Shown here one piece after another: positions 1-64,000 of a stretch of DNA of 64,000 nucleotides (the first letter of the stretch is position 1; every line of letters begins with the position of its first letter). The translations under genes were made by a program, and so were the position numbers. The DNA is taken from the IMG/VR virus record IMGVR_UViG_3300027849_000009; one strand, given 5' to 3'. The notes beneath the pieces are model-generated. The model was not told where the DNA came from. It ran no database searches and saw only the letters and a list, made by a program, of their open reading frames with translations. The DNA comes from a virus.

Positions 1-201
1 GTTACTAGTGATGGACCCTACCAGAGAGAGACTAAGGTTTATAAATCTCTTGATGTTGGTACTGGTAATACTGAAAGAAAGGAACGAATGAACTATACTG
101 GCACTCTTATCAAAGGTATTGCTACCATGCATAAGAGCAATGCGGTGCCAATCCTCAATCAACAAGATGCAATAGACATTGCAAACATGAGAAGATCCTG
201 A
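1..201 (+). CDS. Conserved T4-like phage hypothetical protein, 5'-truncated
   Basis: Frame 1 is open from the window edge and ends ...YTGTLIKGIATMHKSNAVPILNQQDAIDIANMRRS*. Confidence 0.75.
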   Translation, partial: VTSDGPYQRETKVYKSLDVGTGNTERKERMNYTGTLIKGIATMHKSNAVPILNQQDAIDIANMRRS

Positions 202-205
202 TATA

Positions 206-385
206 ATGGTAGATTATACACTGAAGACTAACTGGGATTGCCTAGCGACTCTGACGAAAAAGATTGAAGATGATAAGAAGTCCAAAGAGAAAGTGATTTC
301 TTTTGATGGACTTACGTTGACTACCAACAAGTTTACATATACGTTATTTGCTGGTGAATTGAATAGAAAGAAGAGGACTAAATGA
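206..385 (+). CDS. Hypothetical protein (59 aa)
   Basis: ATG at 206, MVDYTLKTNW...RKKRTK*; its stop overlaps the next ATG. Confidence 0.6.
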   Translation: MVDYTLKTNWDCLATLTKKIEDDKKSKEKVISFDGLTLTTNKFTYTLFAGELNRKKRTK

Positions 386-615
386 TGGCAGAACGATATC
401 GCGAAGAAACTACTGATTGGGGTGATTACAAGATAAGCAATCACATATATATTACTATGGGTGAGCAATTGTTAGGTTATATACCCAAAGGCGGTAAAGA
501 GATGCGATTCTCTAAACCGAAGAAGCAATGGTCAGTATCGCGACGAAAGTTTCGTGAACTCACCAAGAAAGAAATAGCGTGGGTAAAAGAAAATGGTAAC
601 ATACCGCAAAGTTAG
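382..615 (+). CDS. Hypothetical protein
   Basis: ORF with GAGGA SD, translationally coupled to neighbours. Confidence 0.7.
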   Translation: MMAERYREETTDWGDYKISNHIYITMGEQLLGYIPKGGKEMRFSKPKKQWSVSRRKFRELTKKEIAWVKENGNIPQS

Positions 616-967
616 TATATTAGCACTAGCAATATTAATATCTGGATGTAATTTATTACCAGACAACTTCGATAATCAAGAGTTTGGTTATCTCGCAGAA
701 CTTCATGTATCTGCATCCGTAACACCAAGTCCCTGTGATCAAGACGAACTAAAAGAAATACATCGTCTAGCATCCGTTCTCACTACATACAGTGAACATA
801 CACTAAATGACAATACCACACTAATCTATAGTGAGATTCAAAGTCTCACGGGTGAGTTGTTGGACAGGGAATCACCTAGTAGAACCTACTGTAAAATGAA
901 ACGAAAGAGTATCCGACAAGTGACTGACACAGCACTATCGGTATTCGGAACGAGGATAAAGAAATGA
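593..967 (+). CDS. Lipoprotein
   Basis: Signal peptide with lipobox ISGC. Confidence 0.75.
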   Translation: MVTYRKVSILALAILISGCNLLPDNFDNQEFGYLAELHVSASVTPSPCDQDELKEIHRLASVLTTYSEHTLNDNTTLIYSEIQSLTGELLDRESPSRTYCKMKRKSIRQVTDTALSVFGTRIKK

Positions 968-1185
968 GTGCATTATTAGACGATTGGGAAAAGAAAGCAG
1001 AAGTTCATATTCATGAGTTGAAGAGTTACTTGGATAATGGTGAACTTGCACAAGATGAATATGACGAGTTAGTAAAAGATGTTGTTGATACATCTACTAT
1101 TGTCGGACTACTTGATACAGAAAACGATCGGATCATTATGGCGAAGATTGCAGAAGGACTAATGGTTCTTGCAGGTGCGCTATGA
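964..1185 (+). CDS. Acidic hypothetical protein
   Basis: ATGA overlap with the upstream gene; GAGGA SD. Confidence 0.7.
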   Translation: MSALLDDWEKKAEVHIHELKSYLDNGELAQDEYDELVKDVVDTSTIVGLLDTENDRIIMAKIAEGLMVLAGAL

Positions 1186-1574
1186 TAAGTAAAATACTGT
1201 TCGGTGTGATACTGAGTGGTTCTATAGGTTTCTATCTGTTCTATACGTTTGCGCATCTACCATTAGTCACTAAGGTGGAGCAACAGCAGTTAGTTCTACA
1301 GGCACAAGAGTTTCGCCAGCAAGAACAGATTGCTACTATAGACGCACTTCAGAACAATCTAACCAAGACTAGTGAAGCACTAAGCACACAGTCGGCACGT
1401 AACTCAGAGATTGAGGGTGAGATGTCTCGATACATGAACATCTTTCGTAGACACAACCTAAGTAAATTAGCGGCAGCAAAACCTGGACTAATTGAACCAC
1501 GTATTAACAAGGGGACCAAGAATGTATTTGACAGCATCGAAAAAGATTCTGCTTTTATCAGCGATCTTAATTAG
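1182..1574 (+). CDS. Inner-membrane spanin (Rz-like)
   Basis: N-terminal TM helix followed by coiled coil; KPGLIEPRINKGT motif; overlaps a downstream lipoprotein gene. Confidence 0.7.
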   Translation: MISKILFGVILSGSIGFYLFYTFAHLPLVTKVEQQQLVLQAQEFRQQEQIATIDALQNNLTKTSEALSTQSARNSEIEGEMSRYMNIFRRHNLSKLAAAKPGLIEPRINKGTKNVFDSIEKDSAFISDLN

Positions 1575-1914
1575 TACAGGTTGTTCGTTACTTCCTCAAG
1601 CACCTAAAGTTATTCCAGTTGAGATTCGTACTATAGAGGTAAAGATACCTATTGTGCATCCTACTCTGCCTCGTGCAATCGATCTGAAAGAACCATACTT
1701 CTATGTGGTATCAGATAAGAACATGGATACGTTTATCGCAGAGATGGAGAAACTAAATGGTACAGTAGTCTTCACTGCAATGACAATTGATGACTATGAG
1801 TTGATGGCATATAACATGCAGGAAATAAAACGCTACATAGGACAGTTAAAGGAAGTTGTGGTATACTACCGAACTATTAATGACGAACCCGAAGAGGTCG
1901 TAGAGGAAAAATAA
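1522..1914 (+). CDS. Outer-membrane spanin lipoprotein (Rz1-like)
   Basis: Starts inside the i-spanin gene in another frame, AAGGGG SD, lipobox STGC, Pro-rich segment then helix. Confidence 0.7.
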   Translation: MYLTASKKILLLSAILISTGCSLLPQAPKVIPVEIRTIEVKIPIVHPTLPRAIDLKEPYFYVVSDKNMDTFIAEMEKLNGTVVFTAMTIDDYELMAYNMQEIKRYIGQLKEVVVYYRTINDEPEEVVEEK

Positions 1915-2369
1915 TGTACGATTACAAAGTAAAAATCGTGAGAGTGGTCGATGGCGATACAGTGGATGTTGATATTGACTTAGGTTTTGGTATCTGGATG
2001 CTTAAAGAACGTGTACGTATGATGGGCATCGACACACCTGAATCACGTACTCGCGATAAGGTAGAGAAGAAGTTTGGTCTTGCCGCTAAGAAACATCTCA
2101 AAGAAATGTTAGGTAAGACAGCGATTCTTAGGACTCAGATCGATAGGTCCGGAGAAGACAAGAAAGGTAAGTTCGGTCGTATTCTAGGGGACTTCGATGT
2201 TCAAGTTGAACCATCTATCGGTCAGTATGATACAATGAAGAGTGCTTGCCAGATTATGATTGATGACGGTCATGCAGTATCGTACTTCGGTGGTAATAAA
2301 GAAGAGAATAAAGCAAAGCATTTAGCGAACCGTGAACGCCTGATTGCCGAAGGTGTTGTCGTTCTATAG
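1914..2369 (+). CDS. Thermonuclease (staphylococcal nuclease-like)
   Basis: RVVDGDT, RVRMMGIDTPE and GKFGRIL motifs. Confidence 0.9.
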   Translation: MYDYKVKIVRVVDGDTVDVDIDLGFGIWMLKERVRMMGIDTPESRTRDKVEKKFGLAAKKHLKEMLGKTAILRTQIDRSGEDKKGKFGRILGDFDVQVEPSIGQYDTMKSACQIMIDDGHAVSYFGGNKEENKAKHLANRERLIAEGVVVL

Positions 2370-2433
2370 ATCGAAAGGTTATATGCATATAACAAAATAC
2401 TCTAAAAATAGTGTTATTAAATCATAATAATGC

Positions 2434-2462
2434 TTGTGGATGTTACTCTCTCGTGTTATAAT
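2434..2462 (+). promoter_or_regulatory. Early sigma70-type promoter
   Basis: TTGTGG-17-TATAAT with TG extension; upstream motif B at 2388-2404. Confidence 0.6.
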
Positions 2463-2493
2463 GGTACCTCATTAGACAGAGAGAGTAACTACC

Positions 2494-3123
2494 ATGTTCA
2501 TGAAGATCGCAGATTCTACCCTTTACGAGATGTACGTAACTAAGCATCAAATCAAGCAGAACAAAGGCGAAGCACGTGGTTCTAAGGACATGGAGCGCAC
2601 CAAGTGCTACGATGCAGAGTGGAGATTCCAACGCTCTGTTCAGATCCCTCTATTCAAGTCTATCGCAGAAGCAGAAAAATTCACTAAGAAAATCTACAAG
2701 TCTAAGTTGTGGGAGAAGATGTGGAAAGAATCTGTCGAGAACAATGTCGGTAGAATCTTCAACAACTATCCTGACGTAGTACAGATGAAGCGCGCCTCAG
2801 GAAGAACTGCTGGTTCTACTAACGGTAAGACTGTATACTTAAATGTCAATTCTGGTTTAGATATGTACACTTTGTTGCACGAACTTGCTCACACTCTTGG
2901 TCACATGCACCACGGACGTTCGTTTCGTCAAGCACTGTTGAAACTTGTAGGACAGTTCATGGGTGCCAAGTTCAAGAAAGTTCTAGCAGAATCATTCAAG
3001 AAAAACAAACTCAAGTGTGGCGATGCTCGTAAAGCAATGTCATTTGAGAACTGGGTTGCTTCTCGTGATCGAATGGAGAAGATTCGTCAAGAGAAAGGAA
3101 TAGGGGAGTTCGCACCATTATGA
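2494..3123 (+). CDS. HEXXH zinc metallopeptidase-like protein
   Basis: LLHELAH...HHGRSF motif. Confidence 0.75.
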   Translation: MFMKIADSTLYEMYVTKHQIKQNKGEARGSKDMERTKCYDAEWRFQRSVQIPLFKSIAEAEKFTKKIYKSKLWEKMWKESVENNVGRIFNNYPDVVQMKRASGRTAGSTNGKTVYLNVNSGLDMYTLLHELAHTLGHMHHGRSFRQALLKLVGQFMGAKFKKVLAESFKKNKLKCGDARKAMSFENWVASRDRMEKIRQEKGIGEFAPL

Positions 3124-3488
3124 GACCAATATGCTTAAATTACGGTTGTGAGAAACTAGTGACCCATAACGGTAGCAGATGGCGATCCTTCTGTGCCCGT
3201 TGTCATCGTGCTGGATATGGTGCCGCGACACTAGCAGAAGGTGTAACTGCATTCAAGACTGGTGTGTGTAGTAATCAGAACGGTCAACTTGGATTCGGAT
3301 GTGCAATCGATTATGTTAAAGCACCGTGGGCATTGGGACAGACTCAGATCGATCATATATCTGGTGACTACTTTCATAACGATCCAATCAACTGTATGGA
3401 ACTATGTGATATGTGCCATACTTACAAGGGTAAACTGTCAGGCGATTTCAAGCGACAGAATAAATATATGTATAAAAAAACGAAATAA
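3120..3488 (+). CDS. HNH-type endonuclease / zinc-finger protein
   Basis: CxxxxC and CxxC pairs; IDHISG...HNDPINCMELCDMCH. Confidence 0.7.
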   Translation: MRPICLNYGCEKLVTHNGSRWRSFCARCHRAGYGAATLAEGVTAFKTGVCSNQNGQLGFGCAIDYVKAPWALGQTQIDHISGDYFHNDPINCMELCDMCHTYKGKLSGDFKRQNKYMYKKTK

Positions 3489-3501
3489 ACTGAGAAATAT
3501 G

Positions 3502-3530
3502 TTGCAATTACATATTACCTATGTTATAAT
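3502..3530 (+). promoter_or_regulatory. Early sigma70-type promoter
   Basis: TTGCAA-17-TATAAT. Confidence 0.7.
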
Positions 3531-3562
3531 AACACTTCATTAATGAGAAAGAGAGATATATT

Positions 3563-4525
3563 ATGAGTCATGAATTAGAGATTGTAAACGGTAAAGCACA
3601 AATGGCATATGCAGGACAAGTTCCTTGGCATGGTCTCGGTACTAAAGTATCTACAGATTTGTCTCCGAGAGAGATGATGGTCGAAGCGGGATTGGATTGG
3701 GGTGTGGAGAAACACTCTGCATTGATCAACGTGCGTGGTGAGTTAATTGAGACGGGTCAGGAAGCACTTATCCGTACAGATACCAATGCTGTACTAACTA
3801 ACGTAGGTAAGAACTGGAATCCTGTTCAGAATAGCGAAGCATTCGATTTCTTTGCTGAGTACTGCGCCGCTGGCGATATGGAGATGCACACAGCGGGTTC
3901 ACTAAAGGATGGGCAAATCACTTGGGTTCTTGCTAAAGTAAATGAGTCATTCGATATCCTTGGTGATGATCAAGTAGATTCGTTCTTGTTACTATCTAAC
4001 CCACATCAGTATGGCAAAGCAATCAATGTTCGCTTCACTCCTATTCGTGTAGTATGTAACAACACCTTGACCTTCTCACTTAGTGCGAACTCAAACAATC
4101 AAGTAACTATGAATCACCGTTCTAAGTTTAATCCTGATGAAGTTAAAGCACATATGGGAATTGCTCACGACAAGTTTGCTCAGTATAAAGAGATGGCGAA
4201 TTACTTAGGACACAAGCAAGCATCATTCGGTGATTTGATTAACTACTTTAACAACGTGTTCCCAGTTGCTAATGCTGCCGCTCGTGAAGCGAAATCATAC
4301 AGTGATTTGTCTCGTACTGCTAAGATAGCGATGGATCAACTTGACACACAACCGGGTGCTGAGTACGGACGCGGATCATGGTGGCAAGCACTTAATGCAG
4401 TGACTTACACAACCGATCACTTGTTGGGTCGCTCTGCTGATACTCGTATGGCGTCTGCATGGTTCGGATCTAATCAAGCGAAGAAAGTCAAAGCAGTAAA
4501 CCTCGCAGTTGAGATGGCATCGTAA
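3563..4525 (+). CDS. DUF932 / TIGR03299-like phage-plasmid protein
   Basis: PWHGLG, VQNSEAF, AGSL.DG and TPIRVVCNNTL motifs. Confidence 0.85.
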   Translation: MSHELEIVNGKAQMAYAGQVPWHGLGTKVSTDLSPREMMVEAGLDWGVEKHSALINVRGELIETGQEALIRTDTNAVLTNVGKNWNPVQNSEAFDFFAEYCAAGDMEMHTAGSLKDGQITWVLAKVNESFDILGDDQVDSFLLLSNPHQYGKAINVRFTPIRVVCNNTLTFSLSANSNNQVTMNHRSKFNPDEVKAHMGIAHDKFAQYKEMANYLGHKQASFGDLINYFNNVFPVANAAAREAKSYSDLSRTAKIAMDQLDTQPGAEYGRGSWWQALNAVTYTTDHLLGRSADTRMASAWFGSNQAKKVKAVNLAVEMAS

Positions 4526-4549
4526 TTAACGCCTGAAAAACGTCTTTAG

Positions 4550-4557
4550 TATAAATA
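4550..4557 (+). promoter_or_regulatory. T4-type late promoter
   Basis: TATAAATA within an RBS-occluding inverted repeat (4539-4587). Confidence 0.8.
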
Positions 4558-4592
4558 TTATAATGATATTCATGTACTAAAGGCGTTGTTTT

Positions 4593-5066: not shown

Positions 5067-5113
5067 ATAAGATAAGATAAACAATTGAATTAAATGAATG
5101 AAAGGTGGAATAA

Positions 5114-7368: not shown

Positions 7369-7378
7369 GTAAATTGTA

Positions 7379-7807: not shown

Positions 7808-7821
7808 AGGATCAATGTAAC

Positions 7822-8280: not shown

Positions 8281-8284
8281 AGTA

Positions 8285-8572: not shown

Positions 8573-8581
8573 AAATAACAC

Positions 8582-8610
8582 TTGACATTCCTTATAAATC
8601 CTAGTATAAT
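8582..8610 (+). promoter_or_regulatory. sigma70-type promoter
   Basis: TTGACA-17-TATAAT. Confidence 0.75.
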
Positions 8611-8728
8611 GCACTTAACGCTTTTATGAATACTAAATATTATCTTTTCAACAAATATCGCAAATACCAATTCTATCTTGAGAGAAAGGGTAATACTATA
8701 GATGTATATGTTTAGTACTATAAATCCT

Positions 8729-17091: not shown

Positions 17092-18543
17092 ATGCCAGCG
17101 TTAGGTTTAGATGAGTTTAAAAATATAGCGTCATCCGGTGACTATGCTGGCACTTATAGGCATGAAATTTTCAATCTCAAGATCAGAGACAAAAAACCAT
17201 TCATAATAGGCAACACTGAAGCGGGCAGAAAAGTTGTCGGCGTATCTTATGAGTATGATCCCCGCGATACTAGTCATAAAGGCACATTCACCTACTACAT
17301 CCACAACAAGAAAGAACTCATATCTGTATCTAATAGAAAGGTATTTAAAGATGGAGACTTTGGTGGAGGCAAAGCAGGATCAGGTGGTGGTGCTGAAGTA
17401 ACCAAGTTTACTGAGTCTACACAGTGCTACTATTGTGCCTATGTGTTCAAGCATGGACGTAAGATCGATCTGAAGAAACCTCCTACTACTGCTGAACTCA
17501 AATCATGTGAGAATCTGGTATATGCCACAAAGTCACTTGATGATTGTATCAAGAAAGGACCCGCAAAATGGTTCGAAGACCAGATATATGCTAAGACTGC
17601 TAATGTGATGTTCGAGAAATACAAGGGCAAGTTCAAAGGCACTGTATACTTTCATCGTTCTGGTGATGGCAGTAGGTCTAAGTTGATGGACAGCATCTAT
17701 CAAGCAAAGTTAATTTGTGCTAGAAAAGATCGACAGTCTGGTGAACCTCAAGCACCTGGTAGTTTCTCTAATGACAAATGGAATCCCGGTGACATATGGG
17801 CAACAACATTACCTAACGAAGCAAAACCTCTGCACGACTTCACAGATTCGTGGGGCGAACTCAATGATGCTGTAGCAAGACTGAGTGGTGCTTTCGGTGG
17901 TGATGCTAAGATTCTAGGCATATCTTTGAAGCGACTAGCAGGAATGGGTAAAGTACAAGAGTTCAATATTCCTGGCACCAAGACATTCGATGATATCTCA
18001 TTCTCACATTTTACCTTCGGTCAAATCAATAACTTCTTCTCATCTACTGATGCCTACTTGTATACATTAGTACAGGGCAGAATGCAGTTAAGAACATTCT
18101 CTACTACATCATCTTGGCAGGGACAGATTACTGGTGCGGCGGCAGCAGGTGGTAAGATTGGTGGTGGTAACTTAGCATTCTATCTAAATCTAGTCACTAA
18201 TGGTACAGTTAGAATGTTCGGTGCATTAGGAACTGAAGATAATCTCATCAGAAATGAAATAAATAATAACGCTAAATATAGTAATGATTTCTATAAGTTG
18301 TATGTTAATTTAGCGAAAAGTTCTAAGAACCAAAGGCAAGAAGTGCCGCTGTCCGAATCAGAGTTTGATAAGAAACTCAGTCAAGCGACAGATGGTTTTA
18401 GAGTATCAAAATACATTACCAGTAGATTTATAAATGAGTTGTTAAAATTAACTGCTAAAGAGCAGGACGAAATAATGACCTTGTGTTGGTTGTATGCATC
18501 TTCTGCAACAGACCAATCTAGTTATTATATTAAAATAGCATAG
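17092..18543 (+). CDS. PD-(D/E)XK-like nuclease-fold protein
   Basis: KWNPGDIW...GISLK motif; GAGGG SD before 17092. Confidence 0.6.
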   Translation: MPALGLDEFKNIASSGDYAGTYRHEIFNLKIRDKKPFIIGNTEAGRKVVGVSYEYDPRDTSHKGTFTYYIHNKKELISVSNRKVFKDGDFGGGKAGSGGGAEVTKFTESTQCYYCAYVFKHGRKIDLKKPPTTAELKSCENLVYATKSLDDCIKKGPAKWFEDQIYAKTANVMFEKYKGKFKGTVYFHRSGDGSRSKLMDSIYQAKLICARKDRQSGEPQAPGSFSNDKWNPGDIWATTLPNEAKPLHDFTDSWGELNDAVARLSGAFGGDAKILGISLKRLAGMGKVQEFNIPGTKTFDDISFSHFTFGQINNFFSSTDAYLYTLVQGRMQLRTFSTTSSWQGQITGAAAAGGKIGGGNLAFYLNLVTNGTVRMFGALGTEDNLIRNEINNNAKYSNDFYKLYVNLAKSSKNQRQEVPLSESEFDKKLSQATDGFRVSKYITSRFINELLKLTAKEQDEIMTLCWLYASSATDQSSYYIKIA

Positions 18544-21818: not shown

Positions 21819-23819
21819 ATGAAAACATTTAATGCGCTATCAGAAGAAGTAACTCAAAAGCAACTCAATGATGTTGAGAAGTTTGCGGATCGTATTCTCG
21901 CCAAGTTTAATGTAGACATTGAATTTACTCGACACTTTGCGGATCGTATGAATGATGATCGAAACAAACCCGCAGTTAGTGTTGCGGAGTTACAGCAGAT
22001 ATTCAAAAAGATTGCAAGAAAGAAAGCGAAGGATATAAGACAGAATCCAGACAGTGAAGCGGTCATAAAAGATATTCAAAAAGACTTGAACTTGCCTGTG
22101 GTTATACGTTATAATAGAAACAAAGAAGAGTTTGAGGTTACTACAAAGACTATCATGCGCAAAAAAGATTTTAAAACCACAAGTAAAGTAATTACTACGG
22201 AAGCAAAAAAAATGAAAGATGACCCTTGTTGGAAAGATTACGAGATGGTAGGCACTAAGAAGAAGAATGGTAAAGAAGTGCCTAACTGTGTACCAAAAGA
22301 AGATGTGTCCTTAGAGTCAACAAAGGAATACGGTAAGTCTCAGGCAGCGATTGCTCGTAAGCGTCAACAGGCAGCAATGCGTCCTGGTGAGATGGACAAG
22401 TTAAAGCGTCTCAAAGATATGCTCAAGAATGCTAATAATAAAGTTGGTGTTGTTAAAAAAGAATCTGTTGATGAAGCAACTATTGAAGAAGCAACAATGG
22501 GCCCAGACAAGTTAGAGATGCTACGTAAAGCATATGGTTCTGTTAATAAGATAGACCCCTCATCTCCTACGTATAAGAAGATGGAAAAAATGATTGATGG
22601 TATGAGTCAAGACCATTTGAAAGGTCTTGCTTTTGCTAAGATTAAATTCTTATCTATGTTGGCAGCAACTAAGTTACGTTACAAGCACAACGTAAAGTTA
22701 GACTTTGGTGACTACTGGGCAGAATCGGTCGATCATGATCTAGAACAAATCGAAGAAGCAGTTCAAGATTGGACAGTCACCGTTACAAAACCTGTCAACA
22801 AATTAAAGAAAGGTGCCACACAAAAAGTTAAAGCACGTTCGGCATTTGAAGCAATTAACAAAGCAGTGAAACTGTGGGGCGATCCTGCTCTTAAAGCGGC
22901 ACCAATGAATTCGTTTAGTATTACTAAAGAATCTGTTGAACTTGACGAAGCGGCGGGCAAATATTCAAAATCTGGTGATAATCTAATGTATAAATGGGGT
23001 GATGTTAATAAAGCACTAATGAATGCTGGTTTAAACCCTAGAGCAATATTAAATGTTCTTACCGATCTTTCTAAAAAGGAAGTCAAAGAGTCTGTTGAAC
23101 TTGACGAAGGGTACCAAAATAAAGTTTTAGCAAGTAAAGGTCAGTGGGTATTTCAAAATAAAGGCGAAATTCAGCAAATTAAATATAAAGGAAAAGTAAT
23201 TGGAGATGGTTACTATGACCAAGGGTCAGATAGTTTTGATGTAAGTTGGACAGATTTTAAGCGTGGTCAAAAGAATAACCGCAAAGGAGGAACAATGTTT
23301 GATACCGCACAGGATGTCGTAGACTTTTTCTCTAAGATGAAAATTACAGAGTCTGTTGACCTTGACGAAGCAAGACAAATGAAAGACCCTAAGAAAGACT
23401 CTATGGTCACTAAGAGTGGTAAGACTATCGTAATCGACAAGTCTAAGGAATCAGAGTACCTCAAGAAAGGTTGGACTCTTGCTGAGAATGAGACTGTCAA
23501 AGAGTCTAATAACTTCTTTAAGTTCCGCGACTCATTGAATGAGAAGAAAGATTCTGCTGCCGATTTGTACTTTGATACTTACTCTGCCGCAGTACAACAC
23601 GCAAAGGCGCAAGCAGAGAAGAAAGGTTTTGAAGTTGTCGAAGATGATTGGTTCACTCAAGTGACCACAGGCAAAGGGAAACCTGGTCGTGGTAAGACTA
23701 CACGCCACACTCTGAAACTTCTCAAGAATGATAAACCAGTACGTAAAAGTCTTGCTATTCAGGTATACAACCGTGATACCAATAAGAACACTTACGAACT
23801 TAATATGTACATATCCTAA
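21819..23819 (+). CDS. Modular putative internal head polyprotein
   Basis: CTS-like MKTFNALSEE; modules separated by repeated ESV(E/D)LDE linkers. Confidence 0.75.
   Translation: MKTFNALSEEVTQKQLNDVEKFADRILAKFNVDIEFTRHFADRMNDDRNKPAVSVAELQQIFKKIARKKAKDIRQNPDSEAVIKDIQKDLNLPVVIRYNRNKEEFEVTTKTIMRKKDFKTTSKVITTEAKKMKDDPCWKDYEMVGTKKKNGKEVPNCVPKEDVSLESTKEYGKSQAAIARKRQQAAMRPGEMDKLKRLKDMLKNANNKVGVVKKESVDEATIEEATMGPDKLEMLRKAYGSVNKIDPSSPTYKKMEKMIDGMSQDHLKGLAFAKIKFLSMLAATKLRYKHNVKLDFGDYWAESVDHDLEQIEEAVQDWTVTVTKPVNKLKKGATQKVKARSAFEAINKAVKLWGDPALKAAPMNSFSITKESVELDEAAGKYSKSGDNLMYKWGDVNKALMNAGLNPRAILNVLTDLSKKEVKESVELDEGYQNKVLASKGQWVFQNKGEIQQIKYKGKVIGDGYYDQGSDSFDVSWTDFKRGQKNNRKGGTMFDTAQDVVDFFSKMKITESVDLDEARQMKDPKKDSMVTKSGKTIVIDKSKESEYLKKGWTLAENETVKESNNFFKFRDSLNEKKDSAADLYFDTYSAAVQHAKAQAEKKGFEVVEDDWFTQVTTGKGKPGRGKTTRHTLKLLKNDKPVRKSLAIQVYNRDTNKNTYELNMYIS
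22926..23370 (+). repeat. Three copies of a 25-bp linker repeat encoding (K/T)ESV(E/D)LDE
   Basis: AAAGAATCTGTTGAACTTGACGAAG at 22926-22950; variants at 23085-23109 and 23346-23370; partial copy at 22458-22476. Confidence 0.9.
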
Positions 23820-24156: not shown

Positions 24157-24456
24157 ATGGGAAATATGACAAACGCAGATCGACTAGGCAGAATAGAGGA
24201 CAAGATTGACCAAATGTCCGAAGCAATCATCTCACTCGCAAGAGTGCAGGAGAAAGTGTCGGACTTGGAGAATCGAAGAGCGGAGCAACACGAACGTATG
24301 AATCAACACTCTAAGAAATTAGATGACATAGATATTAAAGTCACTACGTTGATGGAAAAAGTAAACAACATACAGATGGTGGGACTCGCGGCAGGCGGTC
24401 TGATAGCAACAATTTTTTTAGCACTACTAACTGGGCAGATAGTAATCGGCCAATAA
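24157..24456 (+). CDS. Coiled-coil protein with C-terminal TM helix
   Basis: RLGRIEDKID heptads and hydrophobic C-terminus. Confidence 0.7.
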   Translation: MGNMTNADRLGRIEDKIDQMSEAIISLARVQEKVSDLENRRAEQHERMNQHSKKLDDIDIKVTTLMEKVNNIQMVGLAAGGLIATIFLALLTGQIVIGQ

Positions 24457-32156: not shown

Positions 32157-32612
32157 ATGTGGAATATGAATGAAAGTGTATTCGAACCCAGCGAAGAGTT
32201 TTTAAAAGACTATGTTGGATTTGTGTATCGTATCACTGAGATAGATACAGGTAAGATGTATATAGGAAAGAAGTTCTTCTGGAAACCCAAGACACTACCC
32301 AAGAACTCTGTACGTAAAAGAAAGATAAAAATGAAAGTACCTTCGGACTGGCAGAAGTATTATGGTTCGAGTGAACATCTATTAGAGTCAATCAAGAGAA
32401 CTGGCGTTGATAACTATCACCGTGAAGTTCTAAAGTTATGCACAACTAAAGGCGAATGCTCCTACTATGAAGCAAAGTTACAATTTGAATACGATGTCCT
32501 ACTCGACGAACAATACTACAATGCGTTTATCGGTTGCAAAATACACGCAAAGCATTTGCCCAAACCCGCTATCGAAATACGAACAGCAGAACCTTGGTTC
32601 AATAGACCTTAA
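32157..32612 (+). CDS. GIY-YIG nuclease-domain protein
   Basis: GFVY...YIGKK and YYGSS motifs. Confidence 0.8.
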   Translation: MWNMNESVFEPSEEFLKDYVGFVYRITEIDTGKMYIGKKFFWKPKTLPKNSVRKRKIKMKVPSDWQKYYGSSEHLLESIKRTGVDNYHREVLKLCTTKGECSYYEAKLQFEYDVLLDEQYYNAFIGCKIHAKHLPKPAIEIRTAEPWFNRP

Positions 32613-44376: not shown

Positions 44377-45005
44377 ACATGAACATGAAAGACATCTTTT
44401 TAAAGAACGGTAGTGATAAGGGTGTTACTGGTAAATACCCACACCACTATCACACAGTGTATGAATCAGTATTCGAATCGCGTCGGAACGAACCTATTAA
44501 GATATTAGAGGTAGGTATTTGGAAAGGAACGAGTCATCAATCATGGTTAGATTACTTTCCCAATGCAGAAGTCTATGGCATTGACATATTTACTCGTGAA
44601 CAACCCGAAGACGTTCCTGCACTACAAGATGAGCGGTGTCACTACATCAAAGCAGACAGTACAAATCCTAGTGTACAAGGTCTCATAGATGAAGCATGGG
44701 GCGAAGATATTAAGTTCGACTTTATCATTGATGATGGTTTACATACGCCTACAGCAAACAGAAAGACTTTCGAGAATCTATGGAAGTATACAGCAAAGGG
44801 CGGCAGTTTCTTAATTGAAGATATTTGGCCAATCAACAAGATGACTTTCGATGAAGCAAAACATTCTTGGATACAGAAATCTGCTTACAACAGACACTTC
44901 TATGACATGTTCCTCGAGGCATTGCCCGAAGGATACGTAGAATACGATTGTCGATATACGAGCGGTGTTCCTGATAGTTATATTATAGAGATAAAGAATG
45001 ATTGA
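44373..45005 (+). CDS. Sugar O-methyltransferase-like (class I SAM)
   Basis: SDK...H.Y, LEVGI, GIDI, FIIDDG.H, IED. Confidence 0.8.
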   Translation: MNMNMKDIFLKNGSDKGVTGKYPHHYHTVYESVFESRRNEPIKILEVGIWKGTSHQSWLDYFPNAEVYGIDIFTREQPEDVPALQDERCHYIKADSTNPSVQGLIDEAWGEDIKFDFIIDDGLHTPTANRKTFENLWKYTAKGGSFLIEDIWPINKMTFDEAKHSWIQKSAYNRHFYDMFLEALPEGYVEYDCRYTSGVPDSYIIEIKND

Positions 45006-45696
45006 TGGTTACGTAATAACACTAAGTGATAATCCAATTTCTTGGCATTCAAGCGATAGACTCATTGCTAGTTCAGAGAAAGTAGAGAACGAGTTTACGA
45101 TTCATAAGACTCAAGCAATCACACCTGATCGTGTAACAACATTGATGAAACAGCATCGACTTCATTGGAACTACCCTTGGCAAGGATCACAACTTGATTT
45201 GCAGTCTGGTCTTACGAAGTCTGCTTATCAAACTGTTGATCCCAATAAGAGAATCGCTTGCTTTCTGTCACACTATCTACTATGGAAAAAGTGTGTAAGT
45301 GAGAAGAAAGACATAATGATATTCGAGCATGATGCATATTTTACAAGTAAGTTAGAATATAGTTTGCTATTTCAATCACCTTATGATATAATAGGACTTA
45401 ATGATCCAATGGGAGCAACTAGACGCGCCCAACTATATCATGAAGGTGTAAGCAAGAGACGCGGAGTTAGTCCAGCACCTAAGATAGATAGCATTGAGAT
45501 TCCACAAGGCATAGCAGGAAACTCTGCATACTTCATTAAACCTGAAGGCGCACAGAAACTAATAAACTTAGTGGATGAATACGGTGCTTGGCCAAACGAT
45601 GCTATTATGTGTAAACAATTAATACCTCGCAAACTGGGACAATTGTTCCCTTATGTAACTAAAGTACAAGGTATCGAATCGACGACCTCAATATGA
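44998..45696 (+). CDS. Glycosyltransferase family 25-like
   Basis: ACFLSH..LW, FEHDA, AY.IKP.GA..L. Confidence 0.8.
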   Translation: MIDGYVITLSDNPISWHSSDRLIASSEKVENEFTIHKTQAITPDRVTTLMKQHRLHWNYPWQGSQLDLQSGLTKSAYQTVDPNKRIACFLSHYLLWKKCVSEKKDIMIFEHDAYFTSKLEYSLLFQSPYDIIGLNDPMGATRRAQLYHEGVSKRRGVSPAPKIDSIEIPQGIAGNSAYFIKPEGAQKLINLVDEYGAWPNDAIMCKQLIPRKLGQLFPYVTKVQGIESTTSI

Positions 45697-47776: not shown

Positions 47777-47808
47777 ACTACTTGTATTCAATTGAAGAGA
47801 CTTATATT

Positions 47809-48492
47809 ATGTTCGAACACCTTAATTATGACCTGGGTTACGCTGATTTAGAATCAGAAACCCTTGAAACTGGTCGTCATTATCAAACGCCTGACGGCAA
47901 AAAGTATCCTTCTATCACAACCTGTCTGTCTATTCTATCTGAGAAAGGCATCGCCGCTTGGCGCAAACGTGTTGGTAAAGAAGAAGCAGACAAGATATCT
48001 TTCCGCGCGTCTACACGCGGTACTGCTGTTCACGAAATCATCGAAGATTACATCAACAATGTGCCTGACTATACTAAGAAGTATATGCCTAACATCGTCG
48101 CTAACTTTCTTGACGTTAAAGAAATCCTAGATACACGTATAGGTAAAGTCTATGCACAAGAAGTTCCATTGTACTCGCATCATCTAGGTGTTGCAGGACG
48201 AGTGGATTGTGTTGCTGAGTTTGATGGCAAGTTATCAATCATCGATTTCAAGACTGCTAAGAAAGCAAAACTTCGTAAGTATGTCGAAGCGTATTTCATG
48301 CAAGAGTCATTCTATGCTATAGCATGGGAAGAAATCACTCAATTACCTATTACACAACTAGTCACCATTATTGCTGTTGACAACGATGAACCACAAGTGT
48401 TTATCGAGCATCGTGATAATTGGTCAGGACCATTAAAACTTACTATTAAGAAGTATAAGGATCGCAAAAATGCCGAACAATATAGTTTCTGA
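47809..48492 (+). CDS. PD-(D/E)XK exonuclease (T4-like, Cas4-like fold)
   Basis: YPSITT, RGT..H, AGRVD, IDFKT, Q...Y. Confidence 0.88.
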   Translation: MFEHLNYDLGYADLESETLETGRHYQTPDGKKYPSITTCLSILSEKGIAAWRKRVGKEEADKISFRASTRGTAVHEIIEDYINNVPDYTKKYMPNIVANFLDVKEILDTRIGKVYAQEVPLYSHHLGVAGRVDCVAEFDGKLSIIDFKTAKKAKLRKYVEAYFMQESFYAIAWEEITQLPITQLVTIIAVDNDEPQVFIEHRDNWSGPLKLTIKKYKDRKNAEQYSF

Positions 48493-60526: not shown

Positions 60527-61042
60527 CTATTTAGTCTTTTTCCTAGAGTATGGTTTCATTTTCTTTAAAGGTTTAATACTTTTCTTTGGTTTTGCTTTCT
60601 GAGTTGACTTAGGCATAATACCCATTGCAGTCAATTCATTCTCAGTCCATATAACAAAGTCCCAACCATTATCCTTAGCATATGCTGATGCCGCTTTCCA
60701 TTTGTTCTGATTCTTTATGTAAGTCAAACCTTCGTTGATGTATCTCTTTGTCTTACGAGAACCTGTAGGTGGTGATAGTTCTTTGTGTGGTTTGATCTCG
60801 ACCAGAACAGTCTTGCCATTCTTGTATGTCAACTTCAAGTCCATAAAGTATCGATGATACCTCATATCAACCTCATAGAGATACGGTATTACTGTCTCTT
60901 CGCTTGACCAGTACTTAATGTCAGAGTTATCGTCTGCCCACATGAAAGCATATTTCTCCCATAGAGAACGATAAACGACCTTATTGTAATCCCCTCTGTA
61001 CTTTTCGGGGTGTTTAACTTTATATCTTCCAGAATACGCCAT
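60527..61042 (-). CDS. gp4: Head completion nuclease gp4
   Basis: KY.GD...V.YRS.WE, WSSEE..IPY, HRYF.D, EIKP, N..KW.AA. Confidence 0.93.
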   Translation of the reverse strand: MAYSGRYKVKHPEKYRGDYNKVVYRSLWEKYAFMWADDNSDIKYWSSEETVIPYLYEVDMRYHRYFMDLKLTYKNGKTVLVEIKPHKELSPPTGSRKTKRYINEGLTYIKNQNKWKAASAYAKDNGWDFVIWTENELTAMGIMPKSTQKAKPKKSIKPLKKMKPYSRKKTK

Positions 61043-61051
61043 AAATATACT

Positions 61052-61082
61052 TATAAATAACCTCATAGAAACTCTATTTAGT
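61052..61082. promoter_or_regulatory. Overlapping divergent late promoters
   Basis: TATAAATA on + (61052-61059) and ACTAAATA on - (61075-61082). Confidence 0.7.
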
Positions 61083-61093
61083 AGGTAAATAAA

Positions 61094-62359
61094 ATGGCAA
61101 AAACATCACGTGGCGAACTAAAGCAACAACAGCGAAAAGCGCAAGAAAATTTCCGCGCTGAAATTGCTAAGTCTGAGAACAGACCTGATCCCACTACTAC
61201 GCAAGAGGCATATGAGAAAACTCAACCAGTTGCTCAAGTAAAGACCGAGGTTATTCATGAAGAAGTTATCACCGAAACTCTCGCAGAAAATCCTTCGCAG
61301 TTCGAAGAAAATAAGAAGCGTAATTTTAGATACCCTCTATCAATGCCCGCATCAGGAAAAGGTTATCCCGGAACTATTACATTTGAAGCACACATAGTTG
61401 AAGGTGTTGATCTTGCCAAAGAAATGTCTGGCATATATAATCGACTTACTAGAAAGAAGGAAGTGGTTGAAGATGAAAGCGAGGCAGATGAAGAAAACAA
61501 ACAGTCCATTATAGAGTCCAACAAAACAGCGAATAGCAAAAACAATGCAGAAGAAGCAGGACTACGGAACGACATCACTAAAGTGGCAAATTCAGTAAGC
61601 AAGACTTTTGAAAATGTTAATGCCCTCAATTCAGTCGGCAGTGTTATATTGCCACTGCAACGTGACTTACGATTCTCGGACAACGTATCATATGAAAGTC
61701 CTGCTATCGGTATGATGGGTGCTGGACTAGAAGGCGCGATAGGCGGTAAGAATCCATTTGATGGTGCTACTAACGGTGACGGTTCATTTACTACTGCCTC
61801 TTCAGCACTTGCCGCACAAGCAATTGCAAAAGCATCGGGTCTTGGAGTTGGCGCACTAATTGGTAAAATAGCAGGCGGTGCTTTAGGTGGTGCTGTACTT
61901 GGTTCTGGCGCTACAGAAGGACTAGGCGATGCTGTCAAGAGTGCTACACGAATTGCATCTGCTCCTAATCAAAGAACTCTATTCAAAGAAGTACAGATTC
62001 GACAGTTTGCTTTCACGTTTAAGTTGATCGCTAACAGTAGTCGTGAGGCAGAAGAGATTAAGAATATCATCAAATTCTTCAGACAGGAATTGTATCCTGA
62101 GATGTTGACTGTTGGTGATAACAAAGTTCCTATCGCATACAAGTTTCCTAATGTGTTTTCGATAAAGGTTAAGAATCAGTTTGGTGGCGATGCTGCCTCA
62201 AAGATACAAAGATGTTATTTACGAGATGTTCAGACATCATACAATGCTACCGGTAACGGTCTCCTAGAAGATGGTAATTTCATCGAAGTGGACATATCGT
62301 TATCGTTTCAAGAAGTTAAAGCACTTGATAAACAAATGGTTGCACTAGAGGATTATTAA
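61094..62359 (+). CDS. gp48: Baseplate tail-tube cap gp48
   Basis: RYP, PN...LF..V..R.F.F.FKL, E...I..II.FF, ..L.F.E. Confidence 0.85.
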   Translation: MAKTSRGELKQQQRKAQENFRAEIAKSENRPDPTTTQEAYEKTQPVAQVKTEVIHEEVITETLAENPSQFEENKKRNFRYPLSMPASGKGYPGTITFEAHIVEGVDLAKEMSGIYNRLTRKKEVVEDESEADEENKQSIIESNKTANSKNNAEEAGLRNDITKVANSVSKTFENVNALNSVGSVILPLQRDLRFSDNVSYESPAIGMMGAGLEGAIGGKNPFDGATNGDGSFTTASSALAAQAIAKASGLGVGALIGKIAGGALGGAVLGSGATEGLGDAVKSATRIASAPNQRTLFKEVQIRQFAFTFKLIANSSREAEEIKNIIKFFRQELYPEMLTVGDNKVPIAYKFPNVFSIKVKNQFGGDAASKIQRCYLRDVQTSYNATGNGLLEDGNFIEVDISLSFQEVKALDKQMVALEDY

Positions 62360-63156
62360 TGTCAAACTATTTTGAAAACTTTCCTAGAAATCTCTATCGT
62401 TTTGGCAACGGTGAGGATCCCGTTTACTTTCAACGACTGAGTAAGTACGTTGATTTGATTGACCAGGTAAGAGATGATGTTGGAGGATACCTAGAGTACG
62501 AGATTCTTGAAGGTGATCGACCCGACACACTAGCACATCGTCTTTACGGTAAGGGCGAGTACGAGTGGACATTCTTCTCAATGAATGAGCGTCTACGTGA
62601 GACTGGTTGGCCAATGAGACTTCAAGATGTGTACGAGTATGCACAGACTAAAGCATATAAGAATTACACTTGTAATATCAATCTTGAAGTTGATTCTGCT
62701 TCGCTTGTTCTTTATGGTGATTCCGTATCAGGACAACAGATGTTACTTTCTGGTATTGCACCGCTATATGATGTTGGTCAAGCAGTAATACTTGGACAAC
62801 AACAAGGCATAGTTACTGCTAAGAACTTAGCGGTTGGCGAGATAACAGTTAGAATTGATAGTGCTGTTGGTAATCCCACAAGTCCTCTGAACCAAACTTA
62901 CTTGTCATATGGTGATGGCACATCTAATGTACTATCATTAACATCTTCTAAGTACGAGTACGAAGGAACACATCACTTCATAGACTCTGCAGGAGATGAG
63001 ATAGATTATTTTTACAGCAATGCGGCGGGTAAAATACCAGTAACTAATCTGGAATATTTAATTGCACAGAATCAAGAGTCGAGAAAAATACGTGTTATCA
63101 AGAAACAATTCATCGACAAGATTGTAGGCGAACACAAACGTCTAACATCGAGATAA
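62359..63156 (+). CDS. gp53: Baseplate wedge subunit gp53
   Basis: YF..FP...Y, G.RPD.LA..LYG, WP, TN.EY....N.ESR.I.V. Confidence 0.88.
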   Translation: MSNYFENFPRNLYRFGNGEDPVYFQRLSKYVDLIDQVRDDVGGYLEYEILEGDRPDTLAHRLYGKGEYEWTFFSMNERLRETGWPMRLQDVYEYAQTKAYKNYTCNINLEVDSASLVLYGDSVSGQQMLLSGIAPLYDVGQAVILGQQQGIVTAKNLAVGEITVRIDSAVGNPTSPLNQTYLSYGDGTSNVLSLTSSKYEYEGTHHFIDSAGDEIDYFYSNAAGKIPVTNLEYLIAQNQESRKIRVIKKQFIDKIVGEHKRLTSR

Positions 63157-63159
63157 TTT

Positions 63160-64000
63160 ATGGCAGAAAATAACTCACAGTATAGTATTCTTGAGGCAGC
63201 AATAATCTCTTCATCTGCAACTAGTGAAGACAATATGGTTGACATCAAGAGCAACGTAATAGAACTTCAATTCTGGGAGCATATAGGCAAACCCTATATC
63301 GATGCAAGGATTGTGTTCATCGATGATATGGGTTTGAAGGAAGCATTAGGCATTCAGGGTACAGAACGTATTCGTATTGTTATAGGTGATGCACAACATC
63401 CCGAAGAACCAGCAATTATCAAATACTTCTACTTTGCTAACATAGCAGAGACAGAGCGATTGAACGAAAGAAGTGAAATGCTATCGGTCAATCTTGTTGA
63501 AGAACACGTATATGTGGATGCTGTTAAACAGTTTAGTAGGTCATACACTGCCAATCTCGAAGACATCATAGAGAGTATATGCAATCGTGATTTAGGTAAA
63601 GGTGTTGAGAGATGGCGATTTAAGGGATCTGTACAGGGTCAACGAAAGATTATTGTTCCTTACATGAGTCCTATTGCCGCGATACAATGGTTAAAGATTA
63701 GAGCAACGACAAAGATTGGTTCACCTATATATCTCTACTCAAGTTTATATCAAGATGAATTGGTCATGTCTGACTTAGATAATCTTTTAAGCGAAGACGT
63801 TATCAACGGTGATATGCCATTCAGATACTCAAAGGCACTTCAGGCAAGCGATGATCCTAGACGTAACCTATACGAGATTATAGAATTTAACGAGACTGGG
63901 GGTGACAACTCACTATCATTATATGAATCTGGTGCTATCGGTTCACTCTATTCTAATCTGGATGCTGGTACAGGCAACTCGGTTGATGACCACATGACTA
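63160..64000 (+). CDS. Baseplate hub protein (gp27-like), 3'-truncated
   Basis: ORF open to the window end; E.I..P...A.I...D...G.E.I.I pattern; follows gp53. Confidence 0.65.
   Translation, partial: MAENNSQYSILEAAIISSSATSEDNMVDIKSNVIELQFWEHIGKPYIDARIVFIDDMGLKEALGIQGTERIRIVIGDAQHPEEPAIIKYFYFANIAETERLNERSEMLSVNLVEEHVYVDAVKQFSRSYTANLEDIIESICNRDLGKGVERWRFKGSVQGQRKIIVPYMSPIAAIQWLKIRATTKIGSPIYLYSSLYQDELVMSDLDNLLSEDVINGDMPFRYSKALQASDDPRRNLYEIIEFNETGGDNSLSLYESGAIGSLYSNLDAGTGNSVDDHMT

What the first reader, a model, noticed from the sequence alone, without database searches (positions are those of the whole stretch)
1..64000. Near-total avoidance of the palindrome RGCY (AGCT/AGCC/GGCT/GGCC)
Seen: in the stretches I scanned, purine-GC is almost always followed by a purine. 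Met-Ala starts are ATGGCA/ATGGCG, Glu-Ala and Lys-Ala use GCA/GCG, and Trp-Leu uses TGG TTR, while pyrimidine-GCT/GCC is common. The four exceptions I found are GGCC at 44827, 45590 and 62609 (forced by Trp-Pro codons) and at 22500 (Gly-Pro, inside the modular polyprotein). GATC and GANTC are not avoided. This was an eye scan, not an exhaustive count. Inference: strong selection by a host RGCY-specific nuclease (CviJI-like specificity) or by a phage-encoded RGCY nuclease that cuts host DNA; candidates in the window are 17092-18543, 1914, 3120 and 32157.
Basis: partly seen in the sequence, partly recalled or inferred. Interest (0 to 1): 0.72.

Follow-up and report, generated by a model that had tools for sequence, protein, structure and literature searches.

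The report
Marine phage genome purged of RGCY
An abundant, uncultured marine T4-like phage has rewritten its codons so that the four-letter DNA word RGCY almost never occurs; this looks like an extreme case of dodging a DNA-cutting restriction enzyme, most likely one made by its unknown bacterial host.

Summary
The 64-kb window has 0 AGCT, 0 AGCC, 0 GGCT and 5 GGCC, against 427±16 RGCY expected when synonymous codons are shuffled.

- **Spread:** a 116-kb contig at about 87% identity shows the same purge, as do fragments from at least 10 other metagenome assemblies.
- **Onset:** the next relative (about 70% identity, same gene order) keeps 1,395 AGCT/AGCC/GGCT sites and lacks only GGCC. GGCC avoidance is therefore older; loss of the other three words is specific to this clade.
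- **How it was done:** sites were removed by synonymous swaps at any of the four positions, with no extra protein change.
- **Still maintained:** substitutions within the clade still dodge the word.
- **Protein cost:** Trp-Pro, the only dipeptide that forces RGCY, is depleted about 3.5-fold.
- **Other words:** several 5- and 6-base palindromes are also depleted.
- **No known protection:** no DNA methylase, TET, DpdA or dCMP hydroxymethylase gene was found.

Best reading (about 0.7): selection by a host restriction nuclease of CviJI-like specificity. The host and the enzyme were not identified.

The phage-encoded-nuclease idea is not supported. The third (3120) gave only weak HNH matches. The fourth (17092-18543) has no recognisable nuclease fold and also occurs in RGCY-rich phages.

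This scan has found RGCY purges before, in other marine T4-like phages.

The parts
1..64000 (.). DNA free of AGCT, AGCC and GGCT on both strands, in coding and non-coding sequence
   Evidence: 0 observed against about 376 expected for these three words under codon shuffling.
44827..44830 (+). Surviving GGCC inside TGG CCA (Trp-Pro, unavoidable), context TTGGCCAA
   Evidence: Conserved at the orthologous position in G002.
45590..45593 (+). Surviving GGCC inside TGG CCA (Trp-Pro, unavoidable)
   Evidence: Conserved in G002 and in G003.
62609..62612 (+). Surviving GGCC inside TGG CCA (Trp-Pro, unavoidable)
   Evidence: Conserved in G002 and in G003.
24448..24451 (+).
   Evidence: Conserved in G002 despite about 14% local divergence.
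22500..22503 (+). Surviving GGCC that could have been avoided (GGC CCA, Gly-Pro), in ORF 21819-23819, context TGGGCCCA
17092..18543 (+). 483-aa protein of unknown function (phrog_1462): an N-terminal SH3/Sm-like barrel plus a 384-aa domain with no known fold. It is the only candidate found in the purged clade and missing from the unpurged relatives searched. No evidence here links it to the purge.
1914..2369 (+). An orthologue is present in the unpurged relative.
32157..32612 (+). An 80%-identical orthologue is present in the unpurged relative.
3120..3488 (+).
   Evidence: E 0.005-0.009. No Pfam family.
47782..48492 (+). PD-(D/E)XK (PDDEXK_1) nuclease beside the TAGT genes. A 74%-identical orthologue is present in the unpurged relative.

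Best explanation
The window is part of an abundant, uncultured marine T4-like myovirus. It carries gp32, baseplate, gp2/gp3/gp4-like and RNR genes. No psbA was found in five contigs of this phage family, so its host is probably a heterotrophic bacterium. The bacteria it infects most likely make a Type II-like restriction endonuclease that cuts the degenerate palindrome RGCY, the specificity known from chlorovirus enzyme CviJI. The phage carries no recognisable DNA methylase or base-replacement pathway, so each RGCY site would be a lethal target. Selection has therefore removed every site that synonymous codons allow, and it keeps removing new ones. GGCC avoidance is older and is shared with relatives, which suggests a HaeIII-like pressure. 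Loss of AGCT, AGCC and GGCT arose in the ancestor of this clade. What is shown: the depletion, its synonymous nature, its clade-specific onset, its maintenance, and its cost at the protein level. What is inferred: that the agent is a host nuclease.
For: **1. Size and specificity of the depletion.** The window has 5 RGCY against 427±16 expected, and half-sites are not avoided. YGCY plus RGCR stands at O/E 1.32 and YGCR at 0.84, so only the palindromic combination is selected against.

**2. Removal by synonymous change.** At 280 RGCY sites of relative G003 that lie in orthologous genes, the window's amino acids are identical at 54.3%. Background is 55.6%, and three control words give 55-59%. The replacements are diverse (AGCA, GGTT, GGCA, AACC, AACT, AGCG and others) and involve any of the four positions. 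This rules out C-to-T deamination bias and base miscalling.

**3. Genome-wide and clade-specific.** G002 (116 kb, about 87% nucleotide identity) has 0 AGCT, 0 AGCC, 0 GGCT and 13 GGCC. Syntenic G003 (153 kb, about 70% identity) has 528, 389, 478 and 20. Under codon shuffling, GGCC O/E is 0.10, 0.12 and 0.11 in the window, G002 and G003. AGCT O/E is 0, 0 and 0.86.

**4. Continued maintenance.** If the real window-versus-G002 substitutions are placed at random positions of the same class, they create 142±11.5 new AGCT/AGCC/GGCT sites. The real sequences have none. The same holds for closer variants.

**5. Cost at the protein level.** Trp-Pro is seen 3 times against 10.6 expected in the window, and 4 against 12.8 in G002. 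Pooled relatives that avoid GGCC show O/E 0.19; relatives that do not avoid it show 0.86.

**6. Varied purges among relatives.** Related phages purge different words: AGCT only, GGCC only, AGCT plus GGCC without AGCC/GGCT, or YGCR. This is what differing host restriction repertoires would produce. The window also lacks AACGTT (0 against 19.8) and AGATCT (0 against 20.9), and is depleted in GCWGC, CTGCAG, GTTAAC, TCTAGA and CTTAAG.

**7. No self-protection or own restriction system found.** Pfam families PF00145, PF01555, PF02086, PF12851, PF01702 and PF00303 have no match in G001-G005. The genes that G002 has and G003 lacks are a FkbM methyltransferase, an Hsp20 and small ORFs.

**8. Context from the literature.** RGCY is the most common methylated motif in marine myovirus-like genomes (PMC8919816). 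This suggests that an RGCY-directed threat is common in this habitat.
Against: - The host is unknown, and no RGCY-specific bacterial restriction enzyme was identified here. To my knowledge, characterised RGCY enzymes come from chloroviruses.
- Avoidable GGCC sites persist (2 in the window, 9 in G002) while the other three words are at zero. A single enzyme cutting all four words equally would not leave this pattern. It needs an added assumption, such as weaker cutting of GGCC or protection of those sites.
- Roughly 15-25% of the phage genome was not seen. The window's first 18.5 kb holds many ORFs of unknown function, so a phage-encoded enzyme is not excluded.
Confidence: 0.7

Rival explanations
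1. The phage makes its own RGCY-cutting nuclease to destroy host or competitor DNA, and protects itself by having no sites. The best candidate is the 483-aa protein at 17092-18543. It may have been acquired after a host-driven purge had already removed the sites.
For: Among relatives, the protein is found only in the purged clade: the window, G001 (90% identity) and L105 (83%). It is absent from G003-G008, Melnitz and C48C1. Eighty IMG/VR loci that carry the family have lower RGCY O/E (median 0.43; 15% below 0.1) than 75 relatives chosen by the TAGT gene (median 0.74; Mann-Whitney p = 2e-12). An independent purged lineage, G009, also carries it. There are faint hints of CCGG-type restriction enzymes: language-model features give RE_HpaII 0.85 and RE_HaeIII 0.84, Foldseek gives SgrAI at E 2.4, and VIA-align gives MspI at Z 3.0. 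By my own reading of the alignment, invariant P-G-D and S-L-K residues sit on adjacent predicted strands.
Against: None of the structural or feature matches is significant. Many carriers of the family are RGCY-rich (L168 0.90, L145 0.81, L156 0.80, and G012 with 279 AGCT), so carrying it does not require a purge. The comparison is confounded by phylogeny and host group. Acquiring a cutter that hits every 64 bp before one's own roughly 1,500 sites are gone would be lethal, so this cannot be the original driver. The other named nucleases have orthologues in unpurged G003.
Confidence: 0.12
2. The phage avoids being marked rather than being cut. A host RGCY methyltransferase would methylate the sites, and the marked DNA would then be attacked by modification-dependent (Type IV, McrBC-like) nucleases in the next host. 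Losing the sites prevents the marking.
For: RGCY methylation is common on marine myovirus-like genomes (PMC8919816). The sequence signature would be the same as for classical restriction.
Against: That study detected no RGCY methylation on prokaryotic genomes. The idea needs two host systems instead of one. Nothing here bears on Type IV enzymes.
Confidence: 0.05
3. The purge avoids a clash with the phage's own GCY hypermodification (C5-methyltransferase, then TET, then TAGT glycosylation). In RGCY this would place bulky groups on both strands at adjacent base pairs.
For: A strong TAGT match lies at 49652-50596 (E 1.5e-44), inside a large sugar-tailoring gene cluster. Phage C5-methyltransferases linked to TET methylate GC[C/T] (PMC8256090). 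Relatives with methyltransferase and/or TET genes (Melnitz, C48C1) have RGCY O/E of about 0.37.
Against: No C5-methyltransferase and no TET were found in G001-G005, or in the window ORFs scanned. G003 carries the same TAGT (82% identity) and the same cluster yet keeps normal AGCT, AGCC and GGCT counts.
Confidence: 0.03
4. The pattern is a mutational bias, a codon-usage side effect, or a sequencing or assembly artefact.
For: None found.
Against: The codon-preserving null still expects 427 sites. Replacements are of many kinds and are synonymous. Independent assemblies from many samples and 7 studies agree.
Confidence: 0.01

Closest known systems
Restriction-site (short palindrome) avoidance in virulent dsDNA phages. 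From my own knowledge: GATC-free Staphylococcus phage K and GGCC-poor Bacillus phages, with a survey by Rusinov et al. 2018, PMC6286503.
   Same: A short palindromic nuclease target is removed genome-wide by synonymous substitution. The pattern is specific to a lineage. Several other palindromes are depleted in the same genome.
   Different: The word is a degenerate 4-mer, equivalent to 3 bp and expected about every 150 bp in this genome, so several hundred sites per 64 kb had to go, and all avoidable non-GGCC ones did. The cost reaches protein sequence through Trp-Pro depletion. No bacterial enzyme of this specificity is known to me.
CviJI restriction-modification system of chlorovirus IL-3A (R.CviJI cuts RG^CY; recognition site as stated in PMC3681635)
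   Same: The recognition word is the one purged here.
   Different: That system is encoded by a virus of algae and protects its own DNA by cytosine methylation. Here no methylase was found, protection is by absence of sites, and the nuclease is inferred to belong to the host.
Phage C5-methyltransferase / TET / TAGT cytosine hypermodification at GC[C/T] (Burke et al. 2021, PMC8256090), and RGCY methylation of marine myovirus-like genomes (Hiraoka et al. 2022, PMC8919816)
   Same: It concerns the same phage group and habitat, and the modified word overlaps RGCY. This window carries a TAGT homologue.
   Different: Those phages keep the sites and modify them. This clade has neither the methyltransferase nor TET, and has deleted the sites instead.

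Membership tests
Restriction-site avoidance in phage genomes | The word is significantly under-represented against a null that keeps protein sequence and codon usage | tested here: met
   5 against 427±16. z = -16 to -20 for AGCT and AGCC/GGCT.
Restriction-site avoidance in phage genomes | Sites are removed by synonymous change, not by protein change or a single mutation type | tested here: met
   Amino-acid identity at relatives' RGCY sites is 54.3% against 55.6% background. Replacements involve all four positions.
Restriction-site avoidance in phage genomes | Avoidance varies between related phages and is actively maintained | tested here: met
   G002 is purged and G003 is not. Other relatives avoid other words. 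Random placement of the real substitutions would create 142±11.5 sites.
Restriction-site avoidance in phage genomes | The host encodes a nuclease that recognises the avoided word | not testable with these tools
   The host is unknown and no whole genome is held for the window. The nearest cultured phages are only about 50% identical in gp32.
Virus-encoded CviJI-like restriction-modification system | The virus encodes a cytosine methyltransferase that protects RGCY | tested here: not met
   No PF00145, PF01555 or PF02086 match in G001-G005. None of the window ORFs scanned matched a DNA methyltransferase family. About 15-25% of the genome was not seen.
Virus-encoded CviJI-like restriction-modification system | The virus encodes an endonuclease specific for RGCY | tested here: inconclusive
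   The nucleases found (SNase, GIY-YIG, PDDEXK_1, TnsA-like) are shared with unpurged G003. The 483-aa protein has no significant nuclease match. No R.CviJI sequence was available as a query.
Phage C5-MT/TET/TAGT hypermodification cluster (PMC8256090) | TET-associated glycosyltransferase | tested here: met
   PF20691 at 49652-50596, E 1.5e-44; a weaker copy at 48787-49659, E 1.2e-8.
Phage C5-MT/TET/TAGT hypermodification cluster (PMC8256090) | A C5 cytosine methyltransferase together with a TET/JBP dioxygenase | tested here: not met
   PF00145 and PF12851 are absent from G001-G008. The same searches found both in Melnitz, and TET in C48C1. The window has only a PF09859-like 2OG oxygenase at 42658-43200.
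PD-(D/E)XK restriction endonuclease (for 17092-18543) | Structural match to a restriction-endonuclease core | tested here: inconclusive
   The models are confident (pLDDT 87 and 90.5). The best matches are not significant: SgrAI at Foldseek E 2.4, and MspI at Z 3.0 with rmsd 5.3 over 151 residues.

The most novel reading that the evidence does not exclude
The 483-aa protein at 17092-18543 belongs to a family of more than 800 marine-phage proteins with no known fold. It could be a new kind of phage-borne restriction endonuclease whose specificity includes RGCY, used to shred host or rival-phage DNA. Under this reading, phages that carry it protect themselves by having no target sites rather than by methylation. 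The locus would be modular: relative G003 has, at the same position, a protein with the same N-terminal barrel but a different C-terminal domain.
Probability: 0.1. Interest if true: 0.85.

Novelty: new member of a known kind. Interest (0 to 1): 0.5.

Why it matters
A frequent-cutter specificity known only from algal viruses appears to act as a major, recurring selective force on abundant ocean phages. Some lineages methylate RGCY and others, like this one, delete it. That predicts an undiscovered class of RGCY-cutting nucleases in marine bacteria. It also gives a sequence-only marker (which words a phage has purged) for grouping uncultured phages by host defence repertoire. The case further shows that restriction pressure can reach through the genetic code and reshape protein sequence, as seen in the Trp-Pro depletion. 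RGCY-free natural genomes and the enzymes behind them could also be useful as tools.

Tried and rejected
- **Whole genome of the window:** none is held. An exact-protein look-up for the left end found nothing.
- **Artefact or mutational bias:** rejected.
- **Literature:** searches for RGCY plus phage and for CviJI plus avoidance found no report of RGCY avoidance in phages. The original CviJI papers (PMC306069, PMC145972) are not held, so I could not check whether CviJI cuts GGCC less well. No supplements are held for PMC8919816.
- **The 483-aa protein:** Pfam gave no family. Sequence and profile searches against PDB found nothing. Foldseek against PDB gave no match at E ≤ 0.001 for the full model or the domain model. 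The VIA-align wide search matched the N-terminal domain to Hfq/Sm/Tudor-like barrels at Z about 5, and the rest at Z 3.8 or lower. The structural atlas library was not available.
- **Genes shared by purged lineages (window and G009) but missing from G003 and G012:** one 97-aa ORF (13558-13851) with no family match, plus a 24-residue match of the truncated ORF at 1-165.
- **Cyanophage identity:** there is no psbA in ten related contigs, although heme oxygenase and bilin reductase genes are present.
- **TGGCCA exemption in this window:** it cannot be separated from forced Trp-Pro, because all three TGGCCA here are Trp-Pro.
- **Artefact:** a few residual sites remain after the real SNPs are applied. 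These come from indel edges in the alignment; the real sequences have none.

Full report
**1. The observation**

The window is 64,000 bp with 39.8% G+C. It contains no AGCT, no AGCC and no GGCT. It has five GGCC, at 22500, 24448, 44827, 45590 and 62609.

The expected number of RGCY depends on the null:
- Base composition gives about 624.
- A first-order Markov model gives about 534.
- Shuffling synonymous codons within each gene, which keeps proteins and codon usage, gives 427±16, with a minimum of 378 in 200 shuffles.

Under the codon shuffle, and with strands merged:

| Word | Observed | Expected | z |
|---|---|---|---|
| AGCC/GGCT | 0 | 191 | -19.8 |
| AGCT | 0 | 185 | -16.1 |
| GGCC | 5 | 52.5 | -7.6 |

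Half-sites are not avoided. YGCY plus RGCR has O/E 1.32 and YGCR has 0.84. GATC (0.89) and GANTC (1.34) are normal. Only the palindromic combination purine-GC-pyrimidine is missing.

Three of the surviving GGCC are TGG CCA (Trp-Pro), the only codon pair that forces an RGCY. The other two, GGC CCA and GGC CAA, could have been avoided.

**2. What the DNA is**

Gene content places the window in a T4-like myovirus:
- It has gp32, a T4 baseplate protein, gp2-, gp3- and gp4-like proteins, class I ribonucleotide reductase, ThyX and PhoH.
- It has a long cluster of glycosyltransferases, radical-SAM enzymes, small-molecule methyltransferases and two carbamoyltransferases.
- It has a heme oxygenase and bilin reductase pair.

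The nearest records in the phage database are Phage C48C1 and the OM43 phage Melnitz, at 68-70% nucleotide identity in the RNR genes. gp32 is only about 50% identical to cyanophages and to Melnitz alike. No psbA was found in ten related long contigs, one of them complete. The host is therefore probably a marine heterotroph.

Near-identical DNA occurs in marine metagenome runs from 7 studies dated 2017-2025. It also occurs in many IMG/VR, ENA and JGI contigs.

**3. Spread and age of the purge**

All fragments at about 83-100% identity (L003-L012, L105, L110) lack AGCT, AGCC and GGCT.

| Genome | Size | Identity to window | AGCT | AGCC | GGCT | GGCC |
|---|---|---|---|---|---|---|
| G002 | 116,030 bp | about 87% nt | 0 | 0 | 0 | 13 |
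| G003 (91% complete, syntenic) | 152,753 bp | about 70% nt | 528 | 389 | 478 | 20 |

G002 shows no RGCY-permissive island anywhere along its length.

Under codon shuffling, GGCC O/E is 0.10 in the window, 0.12 in G002 and 0.11 in G003. AGCT O/E is 0, 0 and 0.86. AGCC/GGCT O/E is 0, 0 and 1.31. GGCC avoidance is therefore older and shared. The step specific to this clade is loss of the other three words.

Other relatives, selected through the TAGT gene, avoid other sets of words. Some avoid AGCT only, some GGCC only, some AGCT plus GGCC but not AGCC/GGCT, and one (L086) avoids YGCR.

**4. How the sites were removed and kept out**

At 280 RGCY sites of G003 that lie in orthologous genes, the window's amino acids are identical at 54.3%. 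Background identity for adjacent codon pairs is 55.6%, and three control words give 55-59%. The window's replacements are varied (AGCA, GGTT, GGCA, AACC, AACT, AGCG and others) and involve any of the four positions. The purge was therefore made by synonymous swaps. It was not made by deamination, by miscalling of a modified base, or by protein change.

Selection is still acting. When the real window-versus-G002 substitutions (4,940 in 42.5 kb) are placed at random positions of the same base and codon class, they create 142±11.5 new AGCT/AGCC/GGCT sites. Closer variants would gain 15-32. The real sequences have none.

There is a cost to proteins. Trp-Pro is seen 3 times against 10.6 expected in the window, and 4 against 12.8 in G002. 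Pooled relatives that avoid GGCC have Trp-Pro O/E 0.19; relatives that do not avoid it have 0.86.

Four of the five surviving GGCC sit at the same positions in G002.

**5. Other avoided words**

Under the same null, the window has:
- AACGTT: 0 against 19.8
- AGATCT: 0 against 20.9
- GCWGC: 23 against 75.5
- CTGCAG: 3 against 17.9
- GTTAAC: 2 against 15.3
- TCTAGA: 2 against 16.8
- CTTAAG: 1 against 10.4

Part of the GCWGC deficit follows from the ban on AGCY. The genome looks shaped by several restriction specificities, of which RGCY is the most severe.

**6. Self-protection and phage-encoded enzymes**

No C5 methylase, N4/N6 methylase, Dam-type methylase, TET/JBP, DpdA/TGT or ThyA-type hydroxymethylase was found in G001-G005. 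The same searches did find a C5 methylase plus TET in Melnitz, and TET in C48C1.

A strong TAGT homologue is present at 49652-50596, but G003 has it too, at 82% identity.

The nucleases in the window all have orthologues in unpurged G003:
- SNase-like, 1914-2369
- GIY-YIG, 32157-32612
- PDDEXK_1, 47782-48492
- TnsA-like, 60527-61066

The genes that G002 has and G003 lacks are a FkbM methyltransferase, an Hsp20 and small ORFs.

**7. The candidate at 17092-18543**

Within this phage group, the protein is present in the purged clade and absent from G003-G008, Melnitz and C48C1. It belongs to a family of more than 800 marine proteins of about 465 aa.

Loci carrying the family have lower RGCY O/E than the TAGT relatives (median 0.43 against 0.74). 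Several other carrier lineages are fully purged. Yet many carriers are RGCY-rich, and purged and unpurged carriers interleave on the protein tree.

The models are confident (pLDDT 87 and 90.5). They show an N-terminal Sm/SH3-like barrel and a 384-residue domain that matches nothing significantly. The only hints are weak ones to CCGG-type restriction enzymes.

G003 has, at the same position, a 367-aa protein. Only its N-terminal roughly 100 residues resemble this family (hhalign E 1.7e-4, probability 50%).

I treat the link as a lead, confounded by phylogeny, and not as support.

**8. An independent lineage**

G009 is 153,883 bp with 45% G+C, and its proteins are about 42% identical to the window's. 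Its counts, with first-order Markov expectations, are:
- AGCT: 0 against 505
- AGCC: 0 against 356
- GGCT: 0 against 360
- CCGG: 0 against 245
- GGCC: 62

Every one of the 62 GGCC lies in TGGCCA. Under codon shuffling that is 62 TGGCCA against 32.6 expected, and 0 other GGCC against 188. Only 16 of the 62 are forced Trp-Pro.

TGGCCA is reported as an m5C motif in marine genomes (PMC8919816). One possibility is that host TGGCCA methylation shields the embedded GGCC. In the present window, all three TGGCCA are forced Trp-Pro, so this cannot be tested here.

**9. Interpretation**

The most economical explanation is gradual selection by a host restriction endonuclease that recognises RGCY, added to an older GGCC-directed pressure. 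A host enzyme allows stepwise site loss, because each lost site raises the chance of escape. A phage that acquired such a cutter while still carrying about 1,500 sites would destroy itself.

RGCY is also the most frequent methylated motif on marine myovirus-like genomes (PMC8919816). Phage methyltransferases linked to TET target GC[C/T] (PMC8256090). Both facts suggest that related phages meet the same threat by modification instead of by deletion.

The persistence of a few avoidable GGCC is not explained by one enzyme that cuts all four words equally.

The host and the nuclease remain unidentified. This scan has reported RGCY purges in other marine T4-like phages before. The phenomenon is therefore recurrent rather than unique to this window.

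Noticed in passing
window 1-64000: Further palindromes are depleted under the codon-shuffle null: AACGTT 0/19.8, AGATCT 0/20.9, GCWGC 23/75.5, CTGCAG 3/17.9, GTTAAC 2/15.3, TCTAGA 2/16.8, CTTAAG 1/10.4, ACGCGT 0/5.7.
   Followed up: partly
G009 = contig of L137 (L190-L197): This distant marine T4-like phage has 0 AGCT, 0 AGCC, 0 GGCT and 0 CCGG. All 62 of its GGCC lie in TGGCCA, which is itself about 1.9-fold enriched. No C5 or N4/N6 methylase was found in the contig.
   Followed up: partly
L086 (IMG/VR 3300006921_000253): A relative selected by the TAGT gene has AGCT 0/54 and YGCR (TGCA, TGCG, CGCA, CGCG) at O/E 0.10. This is a different degenerate GC-core palindrome being avoided.
   Followed up: no
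window 48787-50596: Two TET-associated glycosyltransferase homologues are present (E 1.2e-8 and 1.5e-44). No TET and no C5 methyltransferase were found in the related contigs searched (G001-G008), so what the enzyme acts on is unknown.
   Followed up: partly
window 17092-18543 and L099:14516-15619: At the same position, just upstream of the DUF6267 gene, the window has a 483-aa protein and relative G003 has a 367-aa protein. They share only an N-terminal barrel plus a glycine-rich linker of about 100 residues. This looks like a modular locus with swapped C-terminal domains.
   Followed up: partly
window 30500-34364: Two paralogous carbamoyltransferase genes (547 and 582 aa) are separated by the 151-aa GIY-YIG endonuclease gene at 32157-32612.
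   Followed up: no
window 50586-51762: Heme oxygenase and a ferredoxin-dependent bilin reductase sit side by side in a phage family with no psbA. The pigment genes therefore appear to be in phages of non-cyanobacterial hosts.
   Followed up: no
window 1-18500: This stretch is hypervariable. Most of its ORFs have no homologue in the syntenic relative G003 and no family match.
   Followed up: partly
window, G002 and relatives (proteomes): Trp-Pro dipeptides are 3- to 5-fold depleted in phages that avoid GGCC, but not in relatives that do not avoid it. Pro-Trp is enriched in both groups.
   Followed up: yes
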